DNA of 64,000 nt from a phage, in the sequence record NC_101838.1; one strand, given 5' to 3'. The notes beneath the pieces are model-generated. The model saw only the letters and a list, made by a program, of their open reading frames with translations, did not search any database and had not been told where the DNA came from. Both the position numbers and the translations under genes were made by a program. Position 1 is the first letter of the stretch. Each line of letters starts with the position of its first letter. Positions 3,195 through 62,915 of the stretch are shown in pieces.

Positions 3195-3642
3195 TACTGT
3201 AGAGGGAGATTTAATCTCCCTTTTTAAGAGCGGTGCTGGTCACCTGATCCACGGTTGTAACTGCTTCCACACAATGGGCAAGGGTATAGCAAAACAGATT
3301 GCCCGTGAGTTTCCTCAAGCACTGTCAGCCGACAAAGAGACTAGATACGGTTGCCTAAGTAAACTGGGTGCGTTCTCCCGATGGGAGCACTTATCTCCGG
3401 TAGGTATTGTCTACGGAATCAATCTATATACCCAGTTCTACCCAGGACCTAATGCTGAGTATTTCTCAATCCTGAAAGGCTTTGAGCTAGTCAATGAAGT
3501 ATTCAGCGGATCGACTTTACCATTCTACATCCCTAAGATCGGGTGCGGCATAGGCGGTTTGAAGTGGGAACACGTAGAGGACGTTATTAACCTTGCCACT
3601 TTCGACATAGATATTGTCGTGGTGGAGTACAAAAAGTGTTGA
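3184..3642 (+). CDS. macrodomain protein, TARG1/OARD1-like (O-acyl-ADP-ribose deacylase / ADP-ribosyl hydrolase family)
   Basis: Motifs GAGHLIHGCNCFHTMGKGIAKQI and IPKIGCGIGGLKWEHV resemble the TARG1/C6orf130 macrodomain signature as recalled (AHCISEDCRMGAGIA ... MPRIGCGLDRLQWENV). Probable GTG start at 3184 with gaagaggag upstream; the track ORF starts at an upstream ATG (3103) inside the previous gene. Confidence 0.6.
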   Translation: MIIDTVEGDLISLFKSGAGHLIHGCNCFHTMGKGIAKQIAREFPQALSADKETRYGCLSKLGAFSRWEHLSPVGIVYGINLYTQFYPGPNAEYFSILKGFELVNEVFSGSTLPFYIPKIGCGIGGLKWEHVEDVINLATFDIDIVVVEYKKC

Positions 3643-5143: not shown

Positions 5144-5469
5144 CAGAGATCATCATTTCAACTGCAGGGTATGTATTCCTGACAATCATTGCGCTGGCTA
5201 TTCTGGTGGCGGTGTATGGATTTGTTATCCTTCCTATCCTTGAGACATTTAGTTTGTGTCGGTGTTGGAGAAAAGCTTACGGTCCACAACCATGGAAGGA
5301 CTGGCCCCACCTGGTGCGCTTAGCGTTCTCTTATGCTTACGATCACTCCAGTAGTGCATGCATAACCGGATACCACGCCCACAACTGGAGCTGGGAAGGG
5401 TTGAGGAAATGGAATGTTACAAAGACCATACCTCTGCGCATGTACAAACCTAAAAACAAAGACAACTGA
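5140..5469 (+). CDS. hypothetical membrane protein (109 aa)
   Basis: N-terminal hydrophobic helix (TAGYVFLTIIALAILVAVYGFVILPIL); aaaggggagg SD-like motif; start overlaps upstream stop. Confidence 0.5.
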   Translation: MTEIIISTAGYVFLTIIALAILVAVYGFVILPILETFSLCRCWRKAYGPQPWKDWPHLVRLAFSYAYDHSSSACITGYHAHNWSWEGLRKWNVTKTIPLRMYKPKNKDN

Positions 5470-5499
5470 TACTTGAAAATTCCTGGCATATCAAGTATA

Positions 5500-5960
5500 A
5501 GGGGGATTTCTAAAATGGATTTCCTCCTTTTGATATTTCACCGGGCTGGATATTTTAAAATTCTTAGAAAATCAGAAAATGGATCGAAAACTAAAATGGA
5601 TTTTTCAGAGTAGGCGCGACAAGCTGAATAACTCATCCTATCGTTTGCACCATATTCCAGGCCACCATTATAGATTTCCCACACATGCTAACCTCCCTCT
5701 ACTAGAACTTCCTCCACTTACCCTTGACCTTCTATGGTAACAATCTAACCGCTATCTTGAAGTTGCGGTGCAGCTTTCCAGGTACTCGATCTACTTTTCA
5801 TTTCAGGGCTTGGATTTTCTGAAAATTTTTCTCGATAAATTTCTCAGTACTCGATCTGTTTTTCGTTTTCTGAATCGGATTTTCTGGAAATCGTTCCGGC
5901 TCTCAACCTGAAATTTTTGGGGACGAAATCGATTTTTCGTTTTCAGAAATGGATTTTTAA
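5500..5960. repeat. iteron-like degenerate direct repeats (core GGATTTT) in ORF-free region
   Basis: At least 8 copies of (A)TGGATTTT(C)-like motifs and two copies of CAGTACTCGATCT about 65 bp apart. Confidence 0.6.
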
Positions 5961-17466: not shown

Positions 17467-17527
17467 TATTGTGTCAAGTATTCCGATTGTGTCACCATTG
17501 TGTCTAAAGTGTCATATTGTGTCAGAC
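17467..17527. repeat. five tandem TTGTGTC(A) iterons
   Basis: tattgtgtcaag, gattgtgtcacc, cattgtgtctaa, agtgtcat, tattgtgtcagac at 12-17 bp spacing. Confidence 0.55.
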
Positions 17528-18099
17528 AAGTTTTTCTCCTCTTTGTCAAGTGCTGCATGAAAAATTTACAAACTGGTATGGTAGCATTTTTGCGGACCTG
17601 TTTACATTCAGGAGTGTATGTATAATCCTTGTTGTGTGGGCGTTTATACGTCTGGACGGTCAGAAGTCTGCAGGTTAATATCTAATCTATTGGCTGCTAA
17701 CTATATCCCACACAAATGATAAGAAATATAATTGTTATATGCGTAAACTGTAACTCATGTTATCAATCCCTGTATGGATCGCCAGTGGTGCGCATAATGG
17801 GTATTATGTTAAATTGCCCGTAATGATAAAGGTTCTCACAATGATAGGTATTCTCATTCACCCTCACAAAATAGATTGCAAATGTTGTGCCACTGTGTGA
17901 ACGGCCTCACCTATTAATTTGCCTCACTGCCTCGATATTTGAGAATTATTATAAGAATGAGAAGTATTCCCATTCCGTCCGCCTGGCAGCACTCCTGTAG
18001 GTCCTGCAAGGACTCTAGCTTTCAGCTAGACCCTTCGGGCCTCCCTGTAGGTCAGGTCAAAATCGGGGTAGAATTGGGCCTATTCAGATATTTCTGGCT

Positions 18100-18335
18100 G
18101 ACTCTTCAGGTCTGTGTGGGAAAAGCCAACCTCTCCGGCGGGGCAGGGGGATATCTGCGGGAAAATTGCAGGTCAATTAAAAAATTTACGTGGTATATGA
18201 AGCGCTCTTCAGGTAAGGCATGTATTATGGGATGAAACCCTCTTCAGGCAATGATATTTGTGGGTGTGATATTTGCTGGAAAGCCAGATATGACGGGACT
18301 CCCGGCGGGGCAGGGGTGGTACAGACAGGGAAAAT
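18100..18335. repeat. composite direct repeats (CTCTTCAGG ... CCGGCGGGGCAGGGG ... GGGAAAAT)
   Basis: Unit at 18100-18166 repeated at 18238-18335; extra CTCTTCAGG copies at about 18203 and 18654. Confidence 0.55.
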
Positions 18336-19014
18336 ATGAAGGATGTGGTTGGGTAGATTGATCAGACAGGTAGAGTATGGAATATGTTACAAGTATGTTA
18401 AATATGGAGGTTGAATATCTGTAGGATTTGTGTGTAAAATCAAAGACTTAAGTGGTGTTGTGGTATTTTCTATAAATAATTCAAGTTTAATAGGCAATAT
18501 TTGTCTCTATCCGCTTTGTGTGGTAAACAGATTCAGATTAGATTGGTTTACAAGTGTATACATAATATACAAATTAAAGATACAAGAAACCCCCCCTCCC
18601 CCCTTCGGCTACCATTCACCTTTTCCTCTGACTGGTACTTAAACACTTATTCAGACTCTTCAGGTTATCACCCATATATCATATGGCAGTGACTGGTGTC
18701 CTCCGGCCCCTCTTTCGTCACCCGTCCGCTTCGCCATGCTAATGCCATAGCTAATGGTTCGGTTGTTCACCCTGTTCACTCAGGTGTATCTCTATACCCC
18801 TTCAAACCGAAGAGAACAGAAAACCCGAATTACTCGGTAAAAGAAAAGAGAAGAACTTAATTTTATCAGGATAGGCAAGAATGTCAAGGTATGACTGCTC
18901 ACTAAACAAGCAAACAGTCATGTGTGGGAGGTAAGTGATTGTGGTGGTAGGAAATTTAGTTGAAAGATGTGTTATAGGTGCTTCCAGCACTTTAGCCGGG
19001 CAGCTAATTGTGTG

Positions 19015-19230
19015 TCAGTCCAGCGGTTCATCCTCTACTTCACTGAAATCAATGTTCATGGTCTCTTCCCAACCATCGATCTCAGCACAAGAGTGGAGTT
19101 CTTTAGGGTTTACTCCCAAAGCCTCAGCAACAGAGTCTATATTTAACACCTCTGGCAGGTATGATTCATCGAATTCAAGGTAAATCAGGCCACGAGTGTT
19201 GTCAGCTCCACCAAATATCTCTATCTTCAT
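19015..19230 (-). CDS. hypothetical acidic protein (71 aa)
   Basis: Last ORF of the minus-strand block; acidic. Confidence 0.5.
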   Translation of the reverse strand: MKIEIFGGADNTRGLIYLEFDESYLPEVLNIDSVAEALGVNPKELHSCAEIDGWEETMNIDFSEVEDEPLD

Positions 19231-19351
19231 AAAATCTCCTCTGGGAATGAAAGTGTGAACAGGGTTTTATACGTTCTAATGCACAGGAATTATACACGTT
19301 TGCCTCTTCAGGCCATGCTTTAGCATGAGGAACCTGTGTGGGCTCGGTGCT

Positions 19352-19564
19352 TCATAGTCTACCACCTCTGAACTCTTCGTGCTCAGGCATAATAGAGAAC
19401 CAGATATCTACGATGTCTTCCCACGTTAGGTCATCAGCCTCAGGATCTACCTGGAGCGAAGATGGAGAATCTTCAGAATCTAAGTTTTCCTCTTTCACTG
19501 GCTCAGCCAAGGGACATATAGTCACTCCTTTGGATGTCTCTTCAGATGCATGTGTGTTTATCAT
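19352..19564 (-). CDS. hypothetical acidic protein (70 aa)
   Basis: ORF in minus-strand array. Confidence 0.4.
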   Translation of the reverse strand: MINTHASEETSKGVTICPLAEPVKEENLDSEDSPSSLQVDPEADDLTWEDIVDIWFSIMPEHEEFRGGRL

Positions 19565-19888
19565 GTTCCACCCGTGAGTATTCCGGCAACAGCCGCTATG
19601 GACGTAATGATCATCAGGATCACCACTAAAACTTCGGACAATGTTCTCATTGTGTACTCCATATTCTACAAACTATGTGTGGATACTATCACTGGATCGG
19701 TAATGTGTCAACAGTCGGTAATGTGTCAACAGAAACGCCGCGAGGGTTTGGTTAAAATCCGAGCGTATGGTGATTTGGGTCAAAACGGACGTGCGTTCTC
19801 GCTACGCTCGAAATATGGAGTTGTTTGTAGGGAGCTCTTAAACGCTCTGTAATGAGATTAACTGCCCAAGGTATGCAATCGTGCACCA

Positions 19889-19918
19889 GATAAAGAAAAG
19901 GACGCCACAGAGCGTCCT
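19889..19918 (-). terminator. putative intrinsic terminator (minus strand)
   Basis: Hairpin aggacgc-cacag-agcgtcct with an adjacent A-run on the plus strand (T-run on minus). Confidence 0.45.
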
Positions 19919-59236: not shown

Positions 59237-59587
59237 ATGAAAGATGGGGATAAGCTGCTATATCTTAAAGTCCCCCTTGAAATACTATCTATGTCAAAAG
59301 TTTTGAATGACACAACTGGGGAGGTTGTTGTTCTTGACTTGTATGACAAGATCGTATACTGCTACCTGCACAACTGGTATAAGCTTGGAGGAAATTCACG
59401 CTTCACACCAAGCACAAGGAAAATTGCAGCAGATGTTGGGATAAAGAAAACAAAAGCAGCAGCGTGCGTTAAAACTTTAGAATGTGCAGGAGTGGTTGAA
59501 ACATCCACACAAGGGAGAGGTAAAAGATGCACATTTTCCAAAGTTTTGCCACCAGAAGAAGTTATTCGGATGTCAACAACTGGTTAG
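59237..59587 (+). CDS. putative winged-helix DNA-binding protein (116 aa)
   Basis: STRKIAADVGIKKTKAAACVKTLECAGVV has helix-turn-helix character; followed by an iteron array. Confidence 0.45.
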   Translation: MKDGDKLLYLKVPLEILSMSKVLNDTTGEVVVLDLYDKIVYCYLHNWYKLGGNSRFTPSTRKIAADVGIKKTKAAACVKTLECAGVVETSTQGRGKRCTFSKVLPPEEVIRMSTTG

Positions 59588-59661
59588 ACCAGTAAAAACT
59601 TAAATATCTGTACTATAAGGATTCGTATGTTTTATGTTCGCCATGGAACGGATACTATTAA

Positions 59662-59725
59662 CTGTCCGTGATACGGACACATCTGCCCGTAATACGGACA
59701 CTAACTGTCCGTGATACGGACACAT
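59662..59725. repeat. three tandem palindromic iterons (GTCCGTnnnACGGAC core), about 21-bp period
   Basis: ctgtccgtgatacggacaca, ctgcccgtaatacggacac, ctgtccgtgatacggacacat; followed by an AT-rich tract and further palindromes to about 59850. Confidence 0.65.
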
Positions 59726-59879
59726 AAAGAATATAACTAAAATAACTAAATAATAAAAAATAAAAGATCTAGTACTTATGGTACTAAGTACATATACTTA
59801 ACTTATGTAGAATATACTAGATCCTAAGTACCATGTTTTAAATTTATTACTTACTATGGGCAGTGTCGGCCCTTCATTG

Positions 59880-60160
59880 GCACTCGCCTACGAGGGGCGA
59901 GATGCCGGGCCTCCTTGGTGCACACAATAACAGAAGTTCATACATGCAGGTCTGTTAACATGTGTGGGAGCGAAGCGATAGCGCAGGCCAAAGGCCGAGC
60001 ACTGATGTGGACCACCGACGAAAGCTTGCCAGCGCCGTAAGGAGTCGGTTGAGAGTCTCCCGCGCGAGCTTGGATGAAGTTTATGTGTGGAAACTGACAA
60101 GAAGGCCCCTAAATCGCTCCACAGCTATATAAACTATACCAGGTAATGCAATCGCACCAG
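59880..60160 (+). ncRNA. candidate structured RNA / GC-rich ORF-free island
   Basis: About 280 nt, conspicuously GC-rich and stem-forming, with no credible ORF; strand not established. Confidence 0.2.
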
Positions 60161-60226
60161 TTTGATAGAAAAGCTCGTTACAAAGCGATACAGTGAGTTT
60201 TTCTATAACTTGAAGAGGAGGCAGCT

Positions 60227-60805
60227 ATGGGTTCACGCAAAGATGACCGTGAAAAGATTGCAAAACGTTATCAGAATGAAGAACAGATGGAGAAAACTTT
60301 CAAGTGGAAGCCCGGTTTCCAGCGTAATCATTCTAACGCTCGTGATCGTAAGCATCCGGATAAGTGGCTAACACCGCCAAATGATGGCATGCAGGTTGGG
60401 GATGAGAAGGAGATGTCGCCTGGAAAAGATGGCAACTACATTCGCACTAAGGACGCTGGTCCAAAGGATGACAGCTATCTTGTAGATAAGGTTCTTGATG
60501 GTATCAATGTAGATGTTGACACTGCACGAAACCTTTTTCTTGGGTGGTATCGCACAGGTTTTTTCGACATCAAGGCTATTCGTCGTGTTTGTGATATTAA
60601 AAAGTCTGCATATGATGACGACTCGTTACATCGCACCCTGAGACAATATTCAGAAAGATATGGTCATCCGGTTATCACTCTTGACGATGTTAACGAAGTG
60701 ATGTATCATGCAGAGGTTGTTGCAGGAAGATTTGGTGATGCATATCTTGATATCCTTTCTGCAAAGGATGAGGTAATGTTAAATAAGATTTACTATGAAC
60801 GCTGA
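60227..60805 (+). CDS. hypothetical protein (192 aa)
   Basis: ORF with gaagaggagg SD 7 nt upstream. Confidence 0.55.
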   Translation: MGSRKDDREKIAKRYQNEEQMEKTFKWKPGFQRNHSNARDRKHPDKWLTPPNDGMQVGDEKEMSPGKDGNYIRTKDAGPKDDSYLVDKVLDGINVDVDTARNLFLGWYRTGFFDIKAIRRVCDIKKSAYDDDSLHRTLRQYSERYGHPVITLDDVNEVMYHAEVVAGRFGDAYLDILSAKDEVMLNKIYYER

Positions 60806-60815
60806 GGAGCGCTTA

Positions 60816-61004
60816 ATGAACAACCCGGTAGCAAAGAACTGTAATAAGTTCAACAAGTCTGCAATTCACACTGACAGGAAAAAGAGCTGGTCTCCTGACA
60901 TTGACGAGGAGCTTGAGAGTTACTTTGAAGACCTGGTCACTAATGCAGATGAGGTTGCGATTAAAGAATACGCAGACAGGAAGTATAAGGCCGGGATCTG
61001 TTGA
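60816..61004 (+). CDS. hypothetical protein (62 aa)
   Basis: Internal ATG with gaggag SD; the track ORF starts 21 nt upstream. Confidence 0.45.
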   Translation: MNNPVAKNCNKFNKSAIHTDRKKSWSPDIDEELESYFEDLVTNADEVAIKEYADRKYKAGIC

Positions 61005-61029
61005 CAAAAATAGTGTTACCTGATAAGAT
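61001..61029 (+). promoter_or_regulatory. sigma70-like promoter (TTGACA-17-TAAGAT)
   Basis: Hexamers upstream of the ORF at 61081. Confidence 0.45.
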
Positions 61030-61080
61030 CTGCAATATGATGTGATGCAATTTTAACTTACGAGGTCTACAGGTAATGCT

Positions 61081-61323
61081 ATGTTTAAGGTTAAGCTCGT
61101 TTTTCGTTCCATGAATGAGGATTATTTAGAAGATGAAGGTGAATTTCGTGCACTGGATGATGCAATAGATTTTGCCAACGACTTAGCTTGTATGAATACG
61201 GGTTATGGGCTATGCTGTTGGGATGGTGGTGTTCAGATCGGTGATAGCAAGATCTTCTACTTCTACCCTGAGCCTGATAACAAACAAATTAAGTATGTTT
61301 TATTTATTTGTGCTTTACAATGA
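61081..61323 (+). CDS. hypothetical acidic protein (80 aa)
   Basis: ORF downstream of promoter. Confidence 0.45.
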   Translation: MFKVKLVFRSMNEDYLEDEGEFRALDDAIDFANDLACMNTGYGLCCWDGGVQIGDSKIFYFYPEPDNKQIKYVLFICALQ

Positions 61324-61379
61324 GGTTGTTTTCGTGTATCATGATGAATATCCAATTTAAAGATGAATTTGATGGCTTT

Positions 61380-61610
61380 ATCTCCGGATGCTTTGAAACA
61401 GGGTTCGGAGAAGGCTGAGTTCCCCTTAGAGGGCTTGATAGTGCACCACACTTAAAATGGTAGGGGCAGCCAGCACATGACGATGTGACCCCAGCCAACC
61501 TGTAATAAGGTCGAGCCAAAGTGCGGTAATGGGCTCTGGTAACCCACTTGTTGGGTCTTGCTGGTCCAGGACGCTGGACAAGTCGCAGGGAATACCACCC
61601 TGCGGCGAAC
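61380..61610 (+). ncRNA. candidate structured RNA / second GC-rich ORF-free island
   Basis: About 230 nt GC-rich segment where only overlapping minus-strand pseudo-ORFs appear; strand not established. Confidence 0.2.
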
Positions 61611-61639
61611 TTGACAATCAGTATTTGCTATGATAAAAT
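61611..61639 (+). promoter_or_regulatory. sigma70-like promoter (TTGACA-17-TAAAAT)
   Basis: Hexamers upstream of the ORF at 61668. Confidence 0.5.
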
Positions 61640-61667
61640 CCACCTATCACGTGATAATGGAGGAAAC

Positions 61668-62006
61668 ATGGCGGATACAACTAAAAAGCGTCGCCGTAGA
61701 GGCAGACCTCTGAAAGAGGAGTCCAACGCCATTCAGCTAGAGAAGAACATCCTTGATATGAAGGAATCTTTTATAGCGATGGTTCCAGAAGCTCACAAAG
61801 TTTTAAGAGAGCTGATGTTGGACCCGAAAACCAAACAAAATATTCGTCAAAGCATTGCAGAGTATGTTCTTGATAAGGCAGACCGAATGCAGGAAGAATA
61901 TGATGAGATGTTTGGTGAAGAGGAAGAGGTGGTAGTAGAAGAGGCTGAAAAACCAGCACCTTTTATGCCATTCACCACAGAAATACAGCCTGTTGGCAAT
62001 AGTTAA
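61668..62006 (+). CDS. hypothetical protein with basic AT-hook-like N-terminus (112 aa)
   Basis: Internal ATG with aatggaggaaac SD; KKRRRRGRPLKEE N-terminus, acidic C-terminus. Confidence 0.5.
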   Translation: MADTTKKRRRRGRPLKEESNAIQLEKNILDMKESFIAMVPEAHKVLRELMLDPKTKQNIRQSIAEYVLDKADRMQEEYDEMFGEEEEVVVEEAEKPAPFMPFTTEIQPVGNS

Positions 62007-62015
62007 AATATTTTC

Positions 62016-62044
62016 TTGACAAACTTTGCTTAACAGTGTAATAT
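62016..62044 (+). promoter_or_regulatory. sigma70-like promoter for the tRNA cluster (TTGACA-17-TAATAT)
   Basis: Consensus hexamers about 60 nt upstream of the first tRNA. Confidence 0.55.
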
Positions 62045-62102
62045 TGTAAACATGGTCTCCCACCTTTTCTGGCGGCTAAGGTGTAAAAGAAAGCCACCCA
62101 GT

Positions 62103-62177
62103 GCCCTGTTAGCTTAGTGGATAAAGCAGCGGCCTTCTAAGCCGTTGACACTGGTTCGAGTCCAGTACGGGGTGCCA
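62103..62177 (+). tRNA. tRNA-Arg (anticodon UCU)
   Basis: Manual cloverleaf fold: 7-bp acceptor, D-arm agtggata, anticodon loop cuUCUaa, T-loop ttcgagt, encoded CCA. Confidence 0.85.
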
Positions 62178-62181
62178 AATT

Positions 62182-62268
62182 GGGGAGTTATCCCGTAGAG
62201 GTAGCGGTGTAGACTGTAAATCTATTGTCATTGCGACTCGGGTGGTTCGACTCCACCACTCCCCACCA
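62182..62268 (+). tRNA. tRNA-Tyr (anticodon GUA)
   Basis: Perfect 7-bp acceptor (ggggagt/actcccc), anticodon loop cuGUAaa, long variable arm, T-loop ttcgact, encoded CCA. Confidence 0.8.
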
Positions 62269-62382
62269 AATTTATATTTTTAGATGCATAAATAATACAG
62301 ATAATGGCATTGATATTTATCGTCGTTTATACTAGTCACTAACTGCTCGAAAATCAGTGTCATTATCAGTATTATTTATAAA

Positions 62383-62473
62383 GGAGGGTAGGGAGCAATG
62401 GTGCTCAAGCGGTCTTGAAAACCGTCCCGTTGAGGATGACTCGATGATGGTTCGATTCCATTACTCTCCGCCA
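62383..62473 (+). tRNA. tRNA-Ser (anticodon UGA)
   Basis: Acceptor ggagggt/actctcc, anticodon loop cuUGAaa, long variable arm, T-loop ttcgatt, encoded CCA. Confidence 0.8.
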
Positions 62474-62571
62474 CATTGTTGACCTTGTAATTAAGCGAAA
62501 GTCGGAAGCAGAACCGGATTATCAAATGTTACAGTCGTCATCGCCGACTAGCAACATGGTCAACATACTGA

Positions 62572-62670
62572 GCTAGGTAAGCCCTTTGGCAAGGGCGAGG
62601 ATTTTTAATCCTGAAAATAGACGAGGTAGTCGTTGAATACATAGGTGGTTCGATTCCATCACCTAGCACC
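62572..62670 (+). ncRNA. aberrant tRNA-like element (about 97 nt) lacking a canonical anticodon arm
   Basis: Good acceptor (gctaggt/acctagc), D-arm and T-arm (ggtgg-ttcgatt-ccatc), but the region between holds two 5-bp/5-nt-loop hairpins instead of a 7-nt anticodon loop. Confidence 0.35.
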
Positions 62671-62675
62671 TTTTT

Positions 62676-62751
62676 GCTGATGTAGCACAATCGGTAGTGC
62701 AATTGATTTGTAATCAATAGGTTGTAGGTTCAAGTCCTGCCATCAGCACCA
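62676..62751 (+). tRNA. tRNA-Thr (anticodon UGU)
   Basis: Acceptor gctgatg/catcagc, anticodon stem attga/tcaat with loop uuUGUaa, encoded CCA. Confidence 0.8.
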
Positions 62752-62752
62752 A

Positions 62753-62827
62753 GGCCCTGTAGCTGGAAGGTTCAAGCAAGCGACTCATAATCGCCAGACG
62801 GTGGTTCAATTCCACCCAGGGCCACCA
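62753..62827 (+). tRNA. tRNA with CAU anticodon (Met or lysidine-Ile)
   Basis: Acceptor ggccctg/cagggcc, anticodon loop cuCAUaa, T-loop ttcaatt, encoded CCA. Confidence 0.75.
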
Positions 62828-62838
62828 AATAGTAAATA

Positions 62839-62915
62839 CTCCGCGTAGCTCAGCTTGGTAGAGCGCCTGATTTGGGATCAGGAGGTCGAGTGTTCGAATC
62901 ACTCCGTGGAGACCA
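62839..62915 (+). tRNA. tRNA-Pro (anticodon UGG)
   Basis: Acceptor ctccgcg/cgtggag, canonical D-arm agctcagcttggtagagc, anticodon loop uuUGGga, T-loop ttcgaat, encoded CCA. Confidence 0.85.

What the first reader, a model, noticed from the sequence alone, without database searches (positions are those of the whole stretch)
59880..61610. Two GC-rich ORF-free islands flanking small genes: candidate structured RNAs
Segments of about 280 nt (59880-60160) and about 230 nt (61380-61610) are visibly GC-richer than their surroundings, full of short complementary stretches, and give only implausible low-complexity ORFs. They lie between a promoter-bearing origin-like region and the tRNA cluster, a typical location for phage stable RNAs.
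Basis: seen in the sequence. Interest (0 to 1): 0.45.

Follow-up and report, generated by a model that had tools for sequence, protein, structure and literature searches.

The report
Two conserved structured phage RNAs
Both GC-rich gaps in this rV5-like coliphage are conserved folded non-coding elements absent from Rfam: one holds a small RNA motif also found in T4-like, N4-like and other phages, and the other sits beside a replication origin and is shared with small plasmid-like elements that carry phage structural genes.

Summary
The window is an rV5-like phage (Vequintavirus, 99.8% identical to CarlMeissner and nimi). Both islands are real. They are among the GC-richest stretches of the 64 kb (0.58 and 0.56 against 0.426). 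Neither shows a coding substitution pattern, and neither matches any Rfam 15 family.

Island 2 (about 61419-61610, + strand) holds one copy of a 38-nt three-way-junction motif at 61495-61532. The closing stem covaries (five pair types, none unpaired). The motif occurs in 987 phage records: Vequintavirus, T4-like phages (denV/ip to vs.8 spacer), N4-like Pylas and siphoviruses. It often lies within 1 kb of tRNA genes on the same strand. It is absent from 5,426 E. coli genomes. A sister lineage has a near-consensus promoter directly upstream.

Island 1 (59862 to about 60165, + strand) lies just after a replication-initiator-like gene, three iterons and an AT-rich spacer. Its hairpins keep pairing through compensatory and G-U changes. 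Its core survives where the initiator and iterons are swapped. It is the only strong DNA similarity to about 13-kb circular E. coli elements with capsid and tape-measure genes.

Function and expression are untested.

The parts
59237..59587 (+). Context: ORF79, a small winged-helix protein of the replication-initiator type
   Evidence: PHROG phrog_12838 'replication initiation protein' at E=5e-80, with weaker hits to phrog_8102 and phrog_428 of the same annotation. Pfam HTH_36 and DUF6945 score just under their cut-offs.
59659..59725 (.). Three 21-22-bp iterons (TAACTGTCCGTGATACGGACAC), followed by an AT-rich spacer up to 59861
   Evidence: the repeat finder and TRF results. GC falls to 0.33 at 59600-59899.
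59862..59915 (+). Island 1 block A: outer stem GGCCC/GGGCC enclosing the hairpin GGCA-CUCGCC / GGCGAG-A-UGCC
   Evidence: 15 pairs are 100% paired in 7 sequences. The satellite-like plasmid CP020521 shows two G-C to U-A double changes. Identity to the distant relative L017 is 91%, although the upstream region is unalignable.
59916..59961 (+). Island 1 variable hairpin (CACACAAUAACAG...CUGUUAACAUGUGUG)
   Evidence: An 18-nt deletion in rV5 and Pr121LW leaves a shorter hairpin. The segment is replaced by 185 nt of extra hairpin modules in plasmid CP020521.
59962..60075 (+). Island 1 domain B: a multi-helix junction. It is closed by GUGUGGGAG (59962-59970) pairing with CUCCCGCGC (60057-60065). 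Stem B is ACCGAC (60014-60019) with GUCGGU (60044-60049), around the invariant loop GAAAGCUUGCCAGCGCCG(U/G)AAGGA.
   Evidence: RNAalifold and pair counts: 24 pairs, 98.7% paired in 13 sequences. Stem B has 3 compensatory pairs plus G-U in two phages. The GNRA loop GUAA becomes GGAA. Identity to five 13-kb plasmid-like elements is 84-87%.
60076..60165 (+). Island 1 3' tail: less conserved, with GCCCCUAAAU and a near-palindromic site GGTAATGCAATCGCACC (60141-60157)
   Evidence: 68% identity to L017. The same two short elements follow domain B in the plasmid-like elements. A similar site lies at about 19868-19887.
61308..61418 (+). Small ORF (36 aa), probably a real gene and not part of the RNA
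   Evidence: Variable sites by codon position are 1/1/7. It is annotated in CarlMeissner and nimi. In the L008 lineage it is cut to 8 codons.
61419..61465 (+). Island 2 5' module (CCCCUUAGAGGGCUUGAUAGUGCACCACACUUAAAAUGGUAGG), specific to the Vequintavirinae
   Evidence: 100% identical in L017 and Aya and kept in the distant L008, L068, L071 and L075 lineage. There a TTGACA-17-TATACT promoter ends about 13 nt upstream.
61463..61492 (+). Island 2 variable hairpin P0 (GGGG...CACAU GACG AUGUG...CCCC)
   Evidence: Replaced by different hairpins in other lineages: GGAAC..CUACG GAC CGUAG..GUUCC in L008 and GGGAA..CCUCAU..AUGAGG..UUCCC in T4-like phages. Pairs 54-80 and 59-71 of A5 change on both sides.
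61495..61532 (+). Island 2 core motif, a three-way junction. P1 is CCA/UGG. P2 is ACCU[GUAAUA]AGGU. The first junction is CGA. P3 is GC[CAAAGU]GC. The second junction is GGUAA.
   Evidence: The covariance model hits 61486-61541 at 71.8 bits (E about 7e-25) and nowhere else in the window. The P1 pair at columns 12-45 reads AU 19, UG 3, CG 2, GC 2, UA 1, with none unpaired. The P3 pair C-G becomes G-C in L017. The core is 95% identical in T4-like phages.
61533..61610 (+). Island 2 3' hairpins (CCCA-CUUGU-UGGG, GUCCAG-GACG-CUGGAC, CGCAGGG-AAUACCA-CCCUGCG)
   Evidence: MFE fold. Lineage-specific: different in L008 and partly deleted in phiWec189.
61611..61639 (+). Sigma-70-type promoter of ORF74 (TTGACA-17-TAAAAT), which bounds island 2 on its 3' side
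   Evidence: 11 of 12 consensus matches. Annotated as P74 in the rV5 record.

Best explanation
SHOWN. Both islands are non-coding, + strand, secondary-structure-constrained elements conserved well beyond their neighbours. They belong to no curated RNA family.

ISLAND 2 (inferred). It is a small RNA gene of about 170-190 nt. It is either transcribed from its own early promoter, as the sister lineage suggests, or cut out of the ORF75 transcript. Lineage-specific hairpins are built around a 38-nt three-way junction. P2 and the junction strands are almost invariant, while P1 and the upstream hairpin covary. The same core sits in unrelated virulent phages of Escherichia and Klebsiella (T4-like, rV5-like, N4-like, siphoviruses). 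It is often embedded in tRNA clusters and is absent from E. coli genomes. I therefore infer a trans-acting RNA whose junction is a specific binding surface for one conserved host or shared phage factor. That factor most likely belongs to tRNA, translation or RNA-processing biology, and the RNA may act as a decoy or modulator.

ISLAND 1 (inferred). It is an origin-coupled RNA. The order is initiator gene, iterons, AT-rich spacer, then the structured element. This order recurs with at least seven different iteron sets while domain B stays nearly constant. I infer that the initiator-iteron pair gives specificity and opens the AT-rich region. The transcript, or the displaced + strand, then folds into the constant structure. 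That structure would be used by a common downstream machine, either for primer formation or for replisome loading. On this reading the plasmid-like elements keep it in order to use the same machinery.
For: Identity of the window.

Not coding: no codon-position bias. The ORF78 frame is broken by a 1-nt indel in three satellite copies without loss of nucleotide conservation.

Not in Rfam.

Island 2:
- One covariance-model hit at 71.8 bits.
- P1 covariation with 0 of 27 sequences unpaired, plus a P3 compensatory change.
- 987 phage records in at least four unrelated lineages.
- Same-strand tRNA genes within 1 kb in rV5-like phages, the 46-kb IMG/VR phages, L063 and Pylas.
- No match in 5,426 E. 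coli genomes.
- Promoter TTGACA-17-TATACT (11 of 12) directly upstream in L008, and a second promoter directly downstream, which bound a unit of about 170 nt.
- U-G pairs in P1 fit only the + strand.

Island 1:
- Helices kept by compensatory and G-U changes.
- UNCG and GNRA tetraloops: GUAA becomes GGAA, and UACG and UUCG loops occur in the satellite modules.
- Blocks are 89-93% identical in L017, where the initiator gene and iterons are unalignable at 45-47%.
- ORF79 matches the replication-initiator PHROG, and the satellite 303-aa protein weakly matches the same kind.
- Iterons.
- Domain B is the main nucleotide similarity between phage and satellite elements, while their tape-measure proteins are only about 25% identical and the capsid protein finds nothing.
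Against: No expression data exist. No terminator-like site follows either island.

In the window itself no good promoter precedes island 1, and only a moderate one (TTTACA-17-TATCAT, 61314-61342) precedes island 2. That one would start inside a probably real small ORF.

Most island 1 compensatory changes trace to a single split, phage versus plasmid-like elements, so they amount to few independent events. Fold z-scores are modest (-1.7, -2.7).

P2 invariance is partly an ascertainment effect, because members were retrieved by sequence patterns or BLAST.

No binding partner, cleavage or ligand was tested. Both functional assignments rest on context alone. Hairpins beside an origin could act as single-stranded DNA instead of RNA.
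Confidence: 0.55

Rival explanations
1. Island 1 acts as DNA, not RNA. One version: it is a single-strand initiation or primosome-loading signal, whose hairpins form on the displaced + strand once the initiator melts the AT-rich region. Another version: it is the packaging (pac) signal that plasmid-like elements would need in order to be packaged by a helper terminase.
For: It lies immediately next to the initiator gene, iterons and AT-rich spacer. It stays constant while the iterons are swapped. It is the main sequence shared by the phage and by elements that carry no annotated terminase or portal gene. From general knowledge, RSF1010-type origins place ssi hairpins next to iterons and an AT-rich segment.
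Against: The loops are of RNA-typical kinds: C(UACG)G, C(UUCG)G, and GNRA kept as GUAA to GGAA. G-U intermediates and a bulged A argue against recognition as a symmetric duplex site. The region lies in a co-directional transcription unit with no terminator. For pac specifically, the element is more than 4 kb from the terminase gene, and compensatory stem changes are not expected for a duplex site.
Confidence: 0.2
2. The island 2 motif is a cis-regulatory leader, either a riboswitch-like aptamer or a protein-binding translational operator, that controls the gene downstream of it.
For: In T4-like phages it always lies 60-100 nt upstream of vs.8 or an internal-protein gene. A three-way junction with conserved junction strands is a typical aptamer architecture. 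By eye, the 3' strand of P1 (UGGG or GGGG) could pair instead with a conserved downstream CCCA or CCCC in T4-like phages.
Against: The downstream genes are unrelated across lineages: vs.8, ORF74, tRNAs, or none. In the window and in L008 a strong promoter lies between the motif and the next gene. In Pylas it sits in a 1-kb ORF-free stretch. No terminator or obvious SD-sequestering helix was found. No Rfam riboswitch family matches at E up to 10.
Confidence: 0.12
3. The island 2 motif is a small self-cleaving ribozyme or an RNase processing signal that cuts polycistronic and tRNA-cluster transcripts.
For: It is small, with invariant junction nucleotides, covarying stems and a variable P3 loop. 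It is scattered across unrelated phages and often lies beside tRNA genes. From general knowledge, this is the distribution seen for hammerhead, twister and pistol ribozymes.
Against: No hit to any Rfam ribozyme model, even at E up to 10. The core sequences do not resemble the hammerhead core.
Confidence: 0.1
4. The islands encode small proteins: ORF78 (59962-60132) and the 31-aa and 56-aa ORFs annotated in some genomes.
For: The ORF78 frame is open in all Vequintavirus copies examined, and two indels are multiples of three. It is annotated in rV5, CarlMeissner and ECML-10.
Against: There is no third-position excess (14/17/14 and 7/8/5), unlike every neighbouring gene. The start would be GTG with no Shine-Dalgarno sequence. 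The frame is broken in three plasmid-like copies while the nucleotide sequence stays conserved. The product would be Arg/Ser-rich and of low complexity.
Confidence: 0.03

Closest known systems
Phage T4 stable RNAs species 1 and 2 (rnaC, rnaD)
   Same: They are small non-coding RNAs of unknown function, encoded with a phage tRNA cluster and co-transcribed with tRNAs.
   Different: The island 2 covariance model finds nothing in the T4 tRNA/rnaC/rnaD region. The T4 copy of the motif lies about 6 kb away, between denV and vs.8. By eye, rnaC ends in a tRNA-like T-arm, which the motif lacks.
Origin-coupled transcripts and priming signals: ColE1 RNA II, pAMbeta1-type rep-ori-ssiA, RSF1010 ssiA/ssiB, phage G4 complementary-strand origin (from general knowledge)
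   Same: A folded nucleic-acid element lies directly next to the place where an origin is opened and is needed for priming or replisome loading. In pAMbeta1 and RSF1010 it sits beside an initiator gene, iterons and an AT-rich segment.
   Different: No sequence relationship was tested or is known. Here the element is about 200-300 nt, modular and carries RNA-type tetraloops. Whether RNA or DNA is the active form is unknown.
Small three-way-junction RNAs: hammerhead ribozyme, purine riboswitch
   Same: About 40-70 nt, three helices, conserved junction strands, covarying closing stem.
   Different: No Rfam hit at E up to 10. The junction sequences (CGA and GGUAA) and the invariant hexaloop hairpin differ from both. 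There is no consistent downstream gene.
Pseudo-ToxI of the rV5-like Pectobacterium phage phiTE (PMC3475682)
   Same: A non-coding RNA of an rV5-like phage that works by mimicking a host RNA in order to escape a defence system.
   Different: ToxI-type antitoxins are tandem 36-nt repeats. The only tandem repeats in 59500-61700 are the iterons and two short AT-rich runs, all outside both islands. The motif is single-copy.
Unnamed candidate structured RNAs from IMG/VR (PMC10690425)
   Same: That survey lists thousands of covarying phage intergenic motifs, including tRNA-like ones. These two elements could be among them.
   Different: The main text names none of them and mentions no T4-like or rV5-like motif. 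The supplementary tables were not checked.

Membership tests
Any Rfam 15 family | Score at or above the family's gathering threshold | tested here: not met
   In the whole window only tRNAs pass. At E up to 10 over 59550-62120 the best match is rli43 at 22.5 bits against a threshold of 100, and it lies over the AT-rich region. The homologous loci also give nothing over the motif.
tRNA / tmRNA | Cloverleaf, or tRNA-like domain plus tag reading frame, as detected by ARAGORN | tested here: not met
   ARAGORN finds 7 tRNAs at 62103-62915 and no tmRNA. Nothing is found in either island.
T4 rnaC/rnaD stable RNAs | Sequence and structure similarity to T4 species 1 or species 2 RNA | tested here: not met
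   Model R1 has no hit in T4 69000-75500.
Type III antitoxin RNA (ToxI-like) or its phage mimic | Tandem array of 30-40-nt repeats | tested here: not met
   TRF finds only the 21-nt iterons and two AT-rich microrepeats, all outside the islands.
Riboswitch / cis-regulatory leader | Constant position in the 5' UTR of a related downstream gene, with an expression platform | tested here: not met
   Downstream genes differ between lineages. A promoter separates the motif from ORF74. No terminator-like site follows it.
Riboswitch / cis-regulatory leader | Ligand- or protein-dependent structural change | not testable with these tools
   Needs in-line probing or binding assays.
Self-cleaving ribozyme | Site-specific self-scission | not testable with these tools
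   Only the absence of matches to known ribozyme models could be shown.
Iteron-type replication origin (context of island 1) | Initiator gene next to three or more direct repeats and an AT-rich segment | tested here: met
   ORF79 matches the replication-initiator PHROG. Three 21-22-bp iterons lie at 59659-59725. GC is 0.33 next to them. The same layout occurs with other repeats in L017 and in the plasmid-like elements.
Iteron-type replication origin (context of island 1) | Replication actually starts there | not testable with these tools
   Needs origin mapping.
Protein-coding gene (ORF78 and neighbours) | Excess of third-position substitutions and a frame kept in all homologues | tested here: not met
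   14/17/14 and 7/8/5 against 36/19/90 for ORF77. The frame is broken in L025, L027 and L029.

The most novel reading that the evidence does not exclude
Island 2 would be the rV5 copy of an unrecognised RNA class carried by many virulent enterobacterial phages, including T4, where it would be hidden under a mis-drawn vs.8 start. Its invariant hairpin always presents UAA, UAG or UGA after CUG, resembling a stop codon or the tRNA-Tyr anticodon loop. It would act as a decoy or inhibitor for a host factor that reads such loops, such as an anticodon nuclease of a defence system, a release factor or the ribosome. Island 1 would be an origin RNA through which a new family of about 13-kb plasmid-like satellites, each with its own initiator and iterons, plugs into the replication machinery of rV5-like helper phages.
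Probability: 0.15. Interest if true: 0.85.

Novelty: new member of a known kind. Interest (0 to 1): 0.62.

Why it matters
If confirmed, T4 and roughly a thousand sequenced enterobacterial phages carry an unannotated, strongly constrained small RNA module. A core kept about 95% identical across phage families that share no other DNA points to a common host target. That would give a direct handle on a phage-host interaction, possibly in the tRNA and translation arms race.

Island 1 links a folded RNA (or single-stranded DNA) to an iteron origin whose specificity module is freely exchanged. It is the one element shared with small circular elements that carry capsid and tail genes. That could open up both rV5-type replication initiation and a possibly undescribed helper-satellite system.

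There is also a practical point. Several genome records annotate spurious ORFs over these elements: rV5 ORF78, bas48_0222 and bas48_0223, and the N-terminal extension of T4 vs.8.

Tried and rejected
- Rfam at gathering and at E up to 10, on the window and on seven homologous loci: nothing over either island.
- tmRNA or tRNA-like: none by ARAGORN. Weak sub-threshold permuted-tmRNA hits occur only in Pylas, about 400 nt from the motif.
- Mimicry or capture of E. coli chromosomal sequence: no chromosomal match for either island. Island 1 hits only four small plasmids.
- Relatives of ORF77 outside Vequintavirus, to trace island 1 by synteny: none in the phage collection and one in IMG/VR.
- Wider search for island 1. 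An exact 25-mer in viral contigs gave one hit. Two patterns in genome contigs gave 0 hits and then 3 chance hits inside GC-rich coding regions. A 17-mer in metagenomes gave 120 hits, of which only 2 were real (one Vequintavirus, one 13.9-kb element), and the pattern was too short.
- A 5-bp P3 model with an A-G mismatch was replaced by a 2-3-bp P3, which fits all variants, including L017, L040, L048 and L063.
- A promoter that I read by eye in front of GUGUGGG at 17603-17631 has a 14-nt spacer and was not found by the scan. Dropped.
- Resemblances recalled from memory and not tested, so not used as evidence: RNase P P12, the 23S H44 GUAAUA loop, the end of the tmRNA tag, the E. coli type I-E CRISPR repeat (GAGUUCCCCGCGC against island 1 GAGUCUCCCGCGC), and the d(GCGAAGC) mini-hairpin.
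- Literature searches for rV5 or Vequintavirus ncRNA, T4 RNAs near denV/vs.8, and rV5 satellites found nothing specific.
Full report
WHAT THE WINDOW IS

The 2.1 kb around the finding is 99.8% identical to Escherichia phages CarlMeissner and nimi (Vequintavirus, rV5-like). 117 phage records cover at least 80% of it at more than 90% identity.

All genes in this stretch are on the + strand. Their order is as follows:
- polynucleotide kinase-like ATPase
- metallophosphoesterase
- ORF79
- island 1
- ORF77, ORF76, ORF75
- island 2
- ORF74
- seven tRNA genes at 62103-62915

An RNA ligase gene lies just upstream on the opposite strand.

Window GC is 0.426, and 200-nt windows have sd 0.039. Island 1 contains the GC-richest 200 nt of the whole 64 kb (0.58). 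Island 2 reaches 0.555. Both exceed the 99th percentile.

Only short ORFs overlap the islands. I took the variable sites among nine Vequintavirus sequences and sorted them by codon position:
- The two ORFs inside island 1 give 7/8/5 and 14/17/14.
- ORF77, ORF76, ORF75 and ORF74 give 36/19/90, 14/11/26, 4/1/23 and 6/2/22.

The ORF78 frame is also broken by a 1-nt indel in three plasmid-borne copies whose nucleotide sequence stays conserved. Island 1 is therefore not coding.

The small ORF 61308-61418 has a coding-like pattern (1/1/7), so the non-coding part of island 2 begins at about 61419.

Fold energies are only modestly below those of shuffles: z = -1.74 and -2.65.

NO KNOWN FAMILY

Rfam 15 at gathering thresholds finds only tRNAs in the window. 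At E up to 10 nothing meaningful falls on either island. Seven homologous loci give nothing over the motif either. ARAGORN finds no tmRNA.

ISLAND 2

A sensitive BLAST of 61340-61660 found 987 phage records. 118 are full-length Vequintavirus matches. The rest match only a core of about 43 nt (61491-61533), at about 85-97% identity in the rows shown (95% in most T4-like phages). The other lineages are:
- T4-like phages (Tequatrovirus, Gaprivervirus, Jiaodavirus and others).
- The N4-like Klebsiella phage Pylas.
- The 44-kb Escherichia phage EcoPhCCP1.

In T4-like phages the core lies in the spacer between an internal-protein gene or denV and vs.8. In the T4 reference record it lies inside the annotated 5' end of vs.8, which is 117 nt longer there than in RB3. 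In Pylas it sits in a 1-kb ORF-free stretch after a tRNA cluster. In EcoPhCCP1 it follows the endolysin gene.

Pattern scans of IMG/VR added further lineages.

The anatomy comes from 27-32 distinct sequences:
- A variable upstream hairpin, P0.
- P1, a closing stem of 3-5 bp.
- P2, ACCU[GUARNA]AGGU.
- The junction CGA.
- P3, GC[4-6 nt]GC.
- The junction GGUAA, followed by the 3' strand of P1.

The innermost P1 pair reads AU 19, UG 3, CG 2, GC 2 and UA 1, with no unpaired case. The other P1 pairs are blurred by one-base register shifts, which I checked by eye (CGCG/CGCG, CCCU/AGGG, CUGGU/GCCAG, ACUCA/UGAGU). The P3 pair C-G becomes G-C in L017.

The overall covariation score is 0.137 against 0.046 in shuffles, with 0 of 500 shuffles reaching it. 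One of the six slid controls (+1) scores as high (0.146); the other five are lower. P2 never varies. That is partly an ascertainment effect, because the retrieval fixed its sequence.

The U-G pairs fit only the + strand.

A covariance model built from the alignment finds exactly one copy in the window (61486-61541, 71.8 bits). It finds none in the plasmid-like elements and none in the T4 tRNA/rnaC/rnaD region.

Context clues:
- The motif lies within 1 kb of same-strand tRNA genes in all rV5-like phages, in four 46-kb IMG/VR phages, in L063 and in Pylas. It does not in T4-like phages or the EcoPhCCP1 group.
- It is absent from 5,426 complete E. coli genomes.
- In a distant Vequintavirinae lineage (L008, L068, L071, L075) a TTGACA-17-TATACT promoter (11 of 12) ends about 13 nt before the conserved 5' module. 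The next promoter starts about 170 nt later. This is the best indication of an independent small RNA gene.
- In the window, a strong promoter for ORF74 (61611-61639) follows the island and a weaker candidate (61314-61342) precedes it. Because a promoter separates the motif from the next gene, a cis-regulatory leader is unlikely here.

ISLAND 1

Within Vequintavirus the core is nearly invariant.

In L017, the most distant full-length relative, the blocks are 89-93% identical. ORF77 is 83% identical at the DNA level. ORF79 and the iteron region do not align at all (45-47%). L017 has a different winged-helix gene and different repeats in that place.

ORF79 matches the PHROG family annotated 'replication initiation protein' at E = 5e-80. 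It is followed by three 21-22-bp iterons and an AT-rich spacer.

A search of E. coli genomes and of PLSDB gave an unexpected result. Blocks A (59862-59915) and B (60005-60072) match, at 84-87% identity, unannotated DNA in circular 'plasmids' of 13.2-13.7 kb, and in one 39.6-kb record that holds three matching places. A 13.9-kb metagenome contig matches as well. These elements carry a major capsid protein, a tape-measure protein, a baseplate-like protein and a weakly initiator-like 303-aa protein. No terminase or portal gene is annotated.

Each element has its own repeat set upstream, with at least six different kinds. Downstream of the repeats lies a variable number of small hairpin modules, many with C(UACG)G or C(UUCG)G loops, separated by (U)GUGUGGG. 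Then comes a nearly identical domain B.

Between phage and plasmid-like copies the helices are kept by double changes:
- Block A hairpin: GGCA-CUCGCC/GGCGAG-A-UGCC becomes GUCA-CUCUCC/GGAGAG-A-UGAC. It has 15 pairs, 100% paired, with 2 compensatory pairs.
- Stem B: ACCGAC/GUCGGU becomes GCUGCC/GGCAGC, with a G-U intermediate in Aya and L017.
- The enclosed GNRA loop changes from GUAA to GGAA.
- A long-range helix, GUGUGGGAG with CUCCCGCGC, closes the domain. The whole domain has 24 pairs, 98.7% paired.

Protein similarity between the phage and these elements is low. The tape-measure protein is about 25% identical, and the capsid protein finds no phage hit. Island 1 is therefore by far their best-conserved common feature.

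INTERPRETATION

Shown: both islands are conserved, non-coding, + strand elements under selection for base pairing, and neither belongs to a curated family.

Inferred for island 2: a small trans-acting RNA whose junction is a specific binding surface for a factor common to Escherichia and Klebsiella hosts or their virulent phages. The tRNA-cluster association points to tRNA, translation or RNA processing.

Inferred for island 1: a constant, folded element that works downstream of an exchangeable initiator-iteron module at a replication origin. It would serve either as a primer or R-loop RNA or as a loading signal. The plasmid-like elements would keep it in order to use the same machinery.

The main rival for island 1 is the same structure acting as single-stranded DNA, or as a packaging signal. 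RNA-type tetraloops, G-U intermediates and co-directional transcription favour RNA but do not prove it.

For island 2, a ribozyme, a processing signal or a riboswitch remain possible.

CAVEATS

- There are no expression data.
- The compensatory changes in island 1 reflect few independent events.
- The scans of public collections were pattern-limited.
- E-values from the home-made covariance model are rough.

Noticed in passing
L024 (NZ_CP020521.1, whole record), L025, L027, L028, L029, L145: Circular E. coli 'plasmids' of 13.2-13.9 kb, one of them a 39.6-kb record with three matching places. They encode a major capsid protein, a 706-aa tape-measure protein, a baseplate or tail-fibre-like protein and a weakly initiator-like protein. 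No terminase or portal gene is annotated. They also have about 2.9 kb of ORF-free structured DNA. Each has a different iteron set but the same island-1-like domain. They look like satellite-type elements. A link to rV5-like helpers is suggested only by island 1 and by 25% tape-measure identity.
   Followed up: partly
window 17400-19900: A second ORF-poor, locally GC-rich locus (0.56 at about 17961). It has five ATTGTGTCA repeats (17466-17525), two CGGTAATGTGTCAACAG repeats (about 19697-19735), and hairpin modules with UUCG loops that resemble those of the plasmid-like elements (for example 17996-18050). CUCUUCAGG and CCGGCGGGGCAGGGG are each repeated. It ends with a GGTATGCAATCGTGCACC site like the one after island 1. 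It may be a second copy of the same architecture.
   Followed up: partly
window, whole (14 sites; cluster at 15317-19342; 59961-59968): The octamer TGTGTGGG occurs 14 times against 2.2 expected, and the largest count in 100 shuffles was 6. Several copies form the 5' side of GGG...CCC hairpins in intergenic DNA. The same motif punctuates the hairpin modules of the plasmid-like elements and forms the 5' strand of the helix that closes island 1 domain B.
   Followed up: partly
L030 (T4 NC_000866) 3353-3413, minus strand: The annotated T4 vs.8 CDS (660 nt) starts 117 nt upstream of the start used in RB3 and VR25, and so runs through the conserved RNA motif. The long form is probably an annotation artefact.
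   Followed up: partly
L017 1319-2130: This rV5-like IMG/VR phage has replaced ORF79 and its iterons with an unrelated 143-aa winged-helix gene and ATTTGCATCAGAT-type repeats. Island 1 and the genes on both sides are kept. This is a clean swap of an origin-specificity module.
   Followed up: partly
window 60141-60157; satellites e.g. L027 about 850-870: The near-palindromic site GGTAATGCAATCGCACC (phage) or GTAGTGCAATTGCATTAC (plasmid-like elements) lies just after the structured element in both. It looks like an operator for a dimeric DNA-binding protein.
   Followed up: no
L013 (Pylas) 1335-1660; L006 about 5250-5600: In Pylas and in the 46-kb IMG/VR phages, the island 2 motif is flanked by long-stem modules (CACAACAGGUAAUGGCAUUG...CAGUGCCAUUAUCGUUGUGG). 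One of these encloses a tRNA-like D-arm and T-arm (GCGGUUCGAUUCCGC) with no anticodon arm. From memory this is reminiscent of Y-RNA-like (YrlA) architecture. Pylas also has weak, sub-threshold permuted-tmRNA hits at 1917-2052.
   Followed up: no
window 62572-62670: A 99-nt tRNA-like gene that ARAGORN reads with a four-base anticodon (atcc). Rfam tRNA scores it at 35.5 bits. Depositors call it tRNA-Lys, tRNA-OTHER, or leave it out.
   Followed up: no
window 61502-61507 and homologues: The second to fourth bases of the P2 hexaloop are UAA, UAG or UGA in every member seen, and never UGG. They always follow CUG. This fits a U-turn (UNR), a stop-codon-like triplet, or the tRNA-Tyr anticodon-loop sequence CUGUAA. 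The sample is too small and too biased to choose between them.
   Followed up: no
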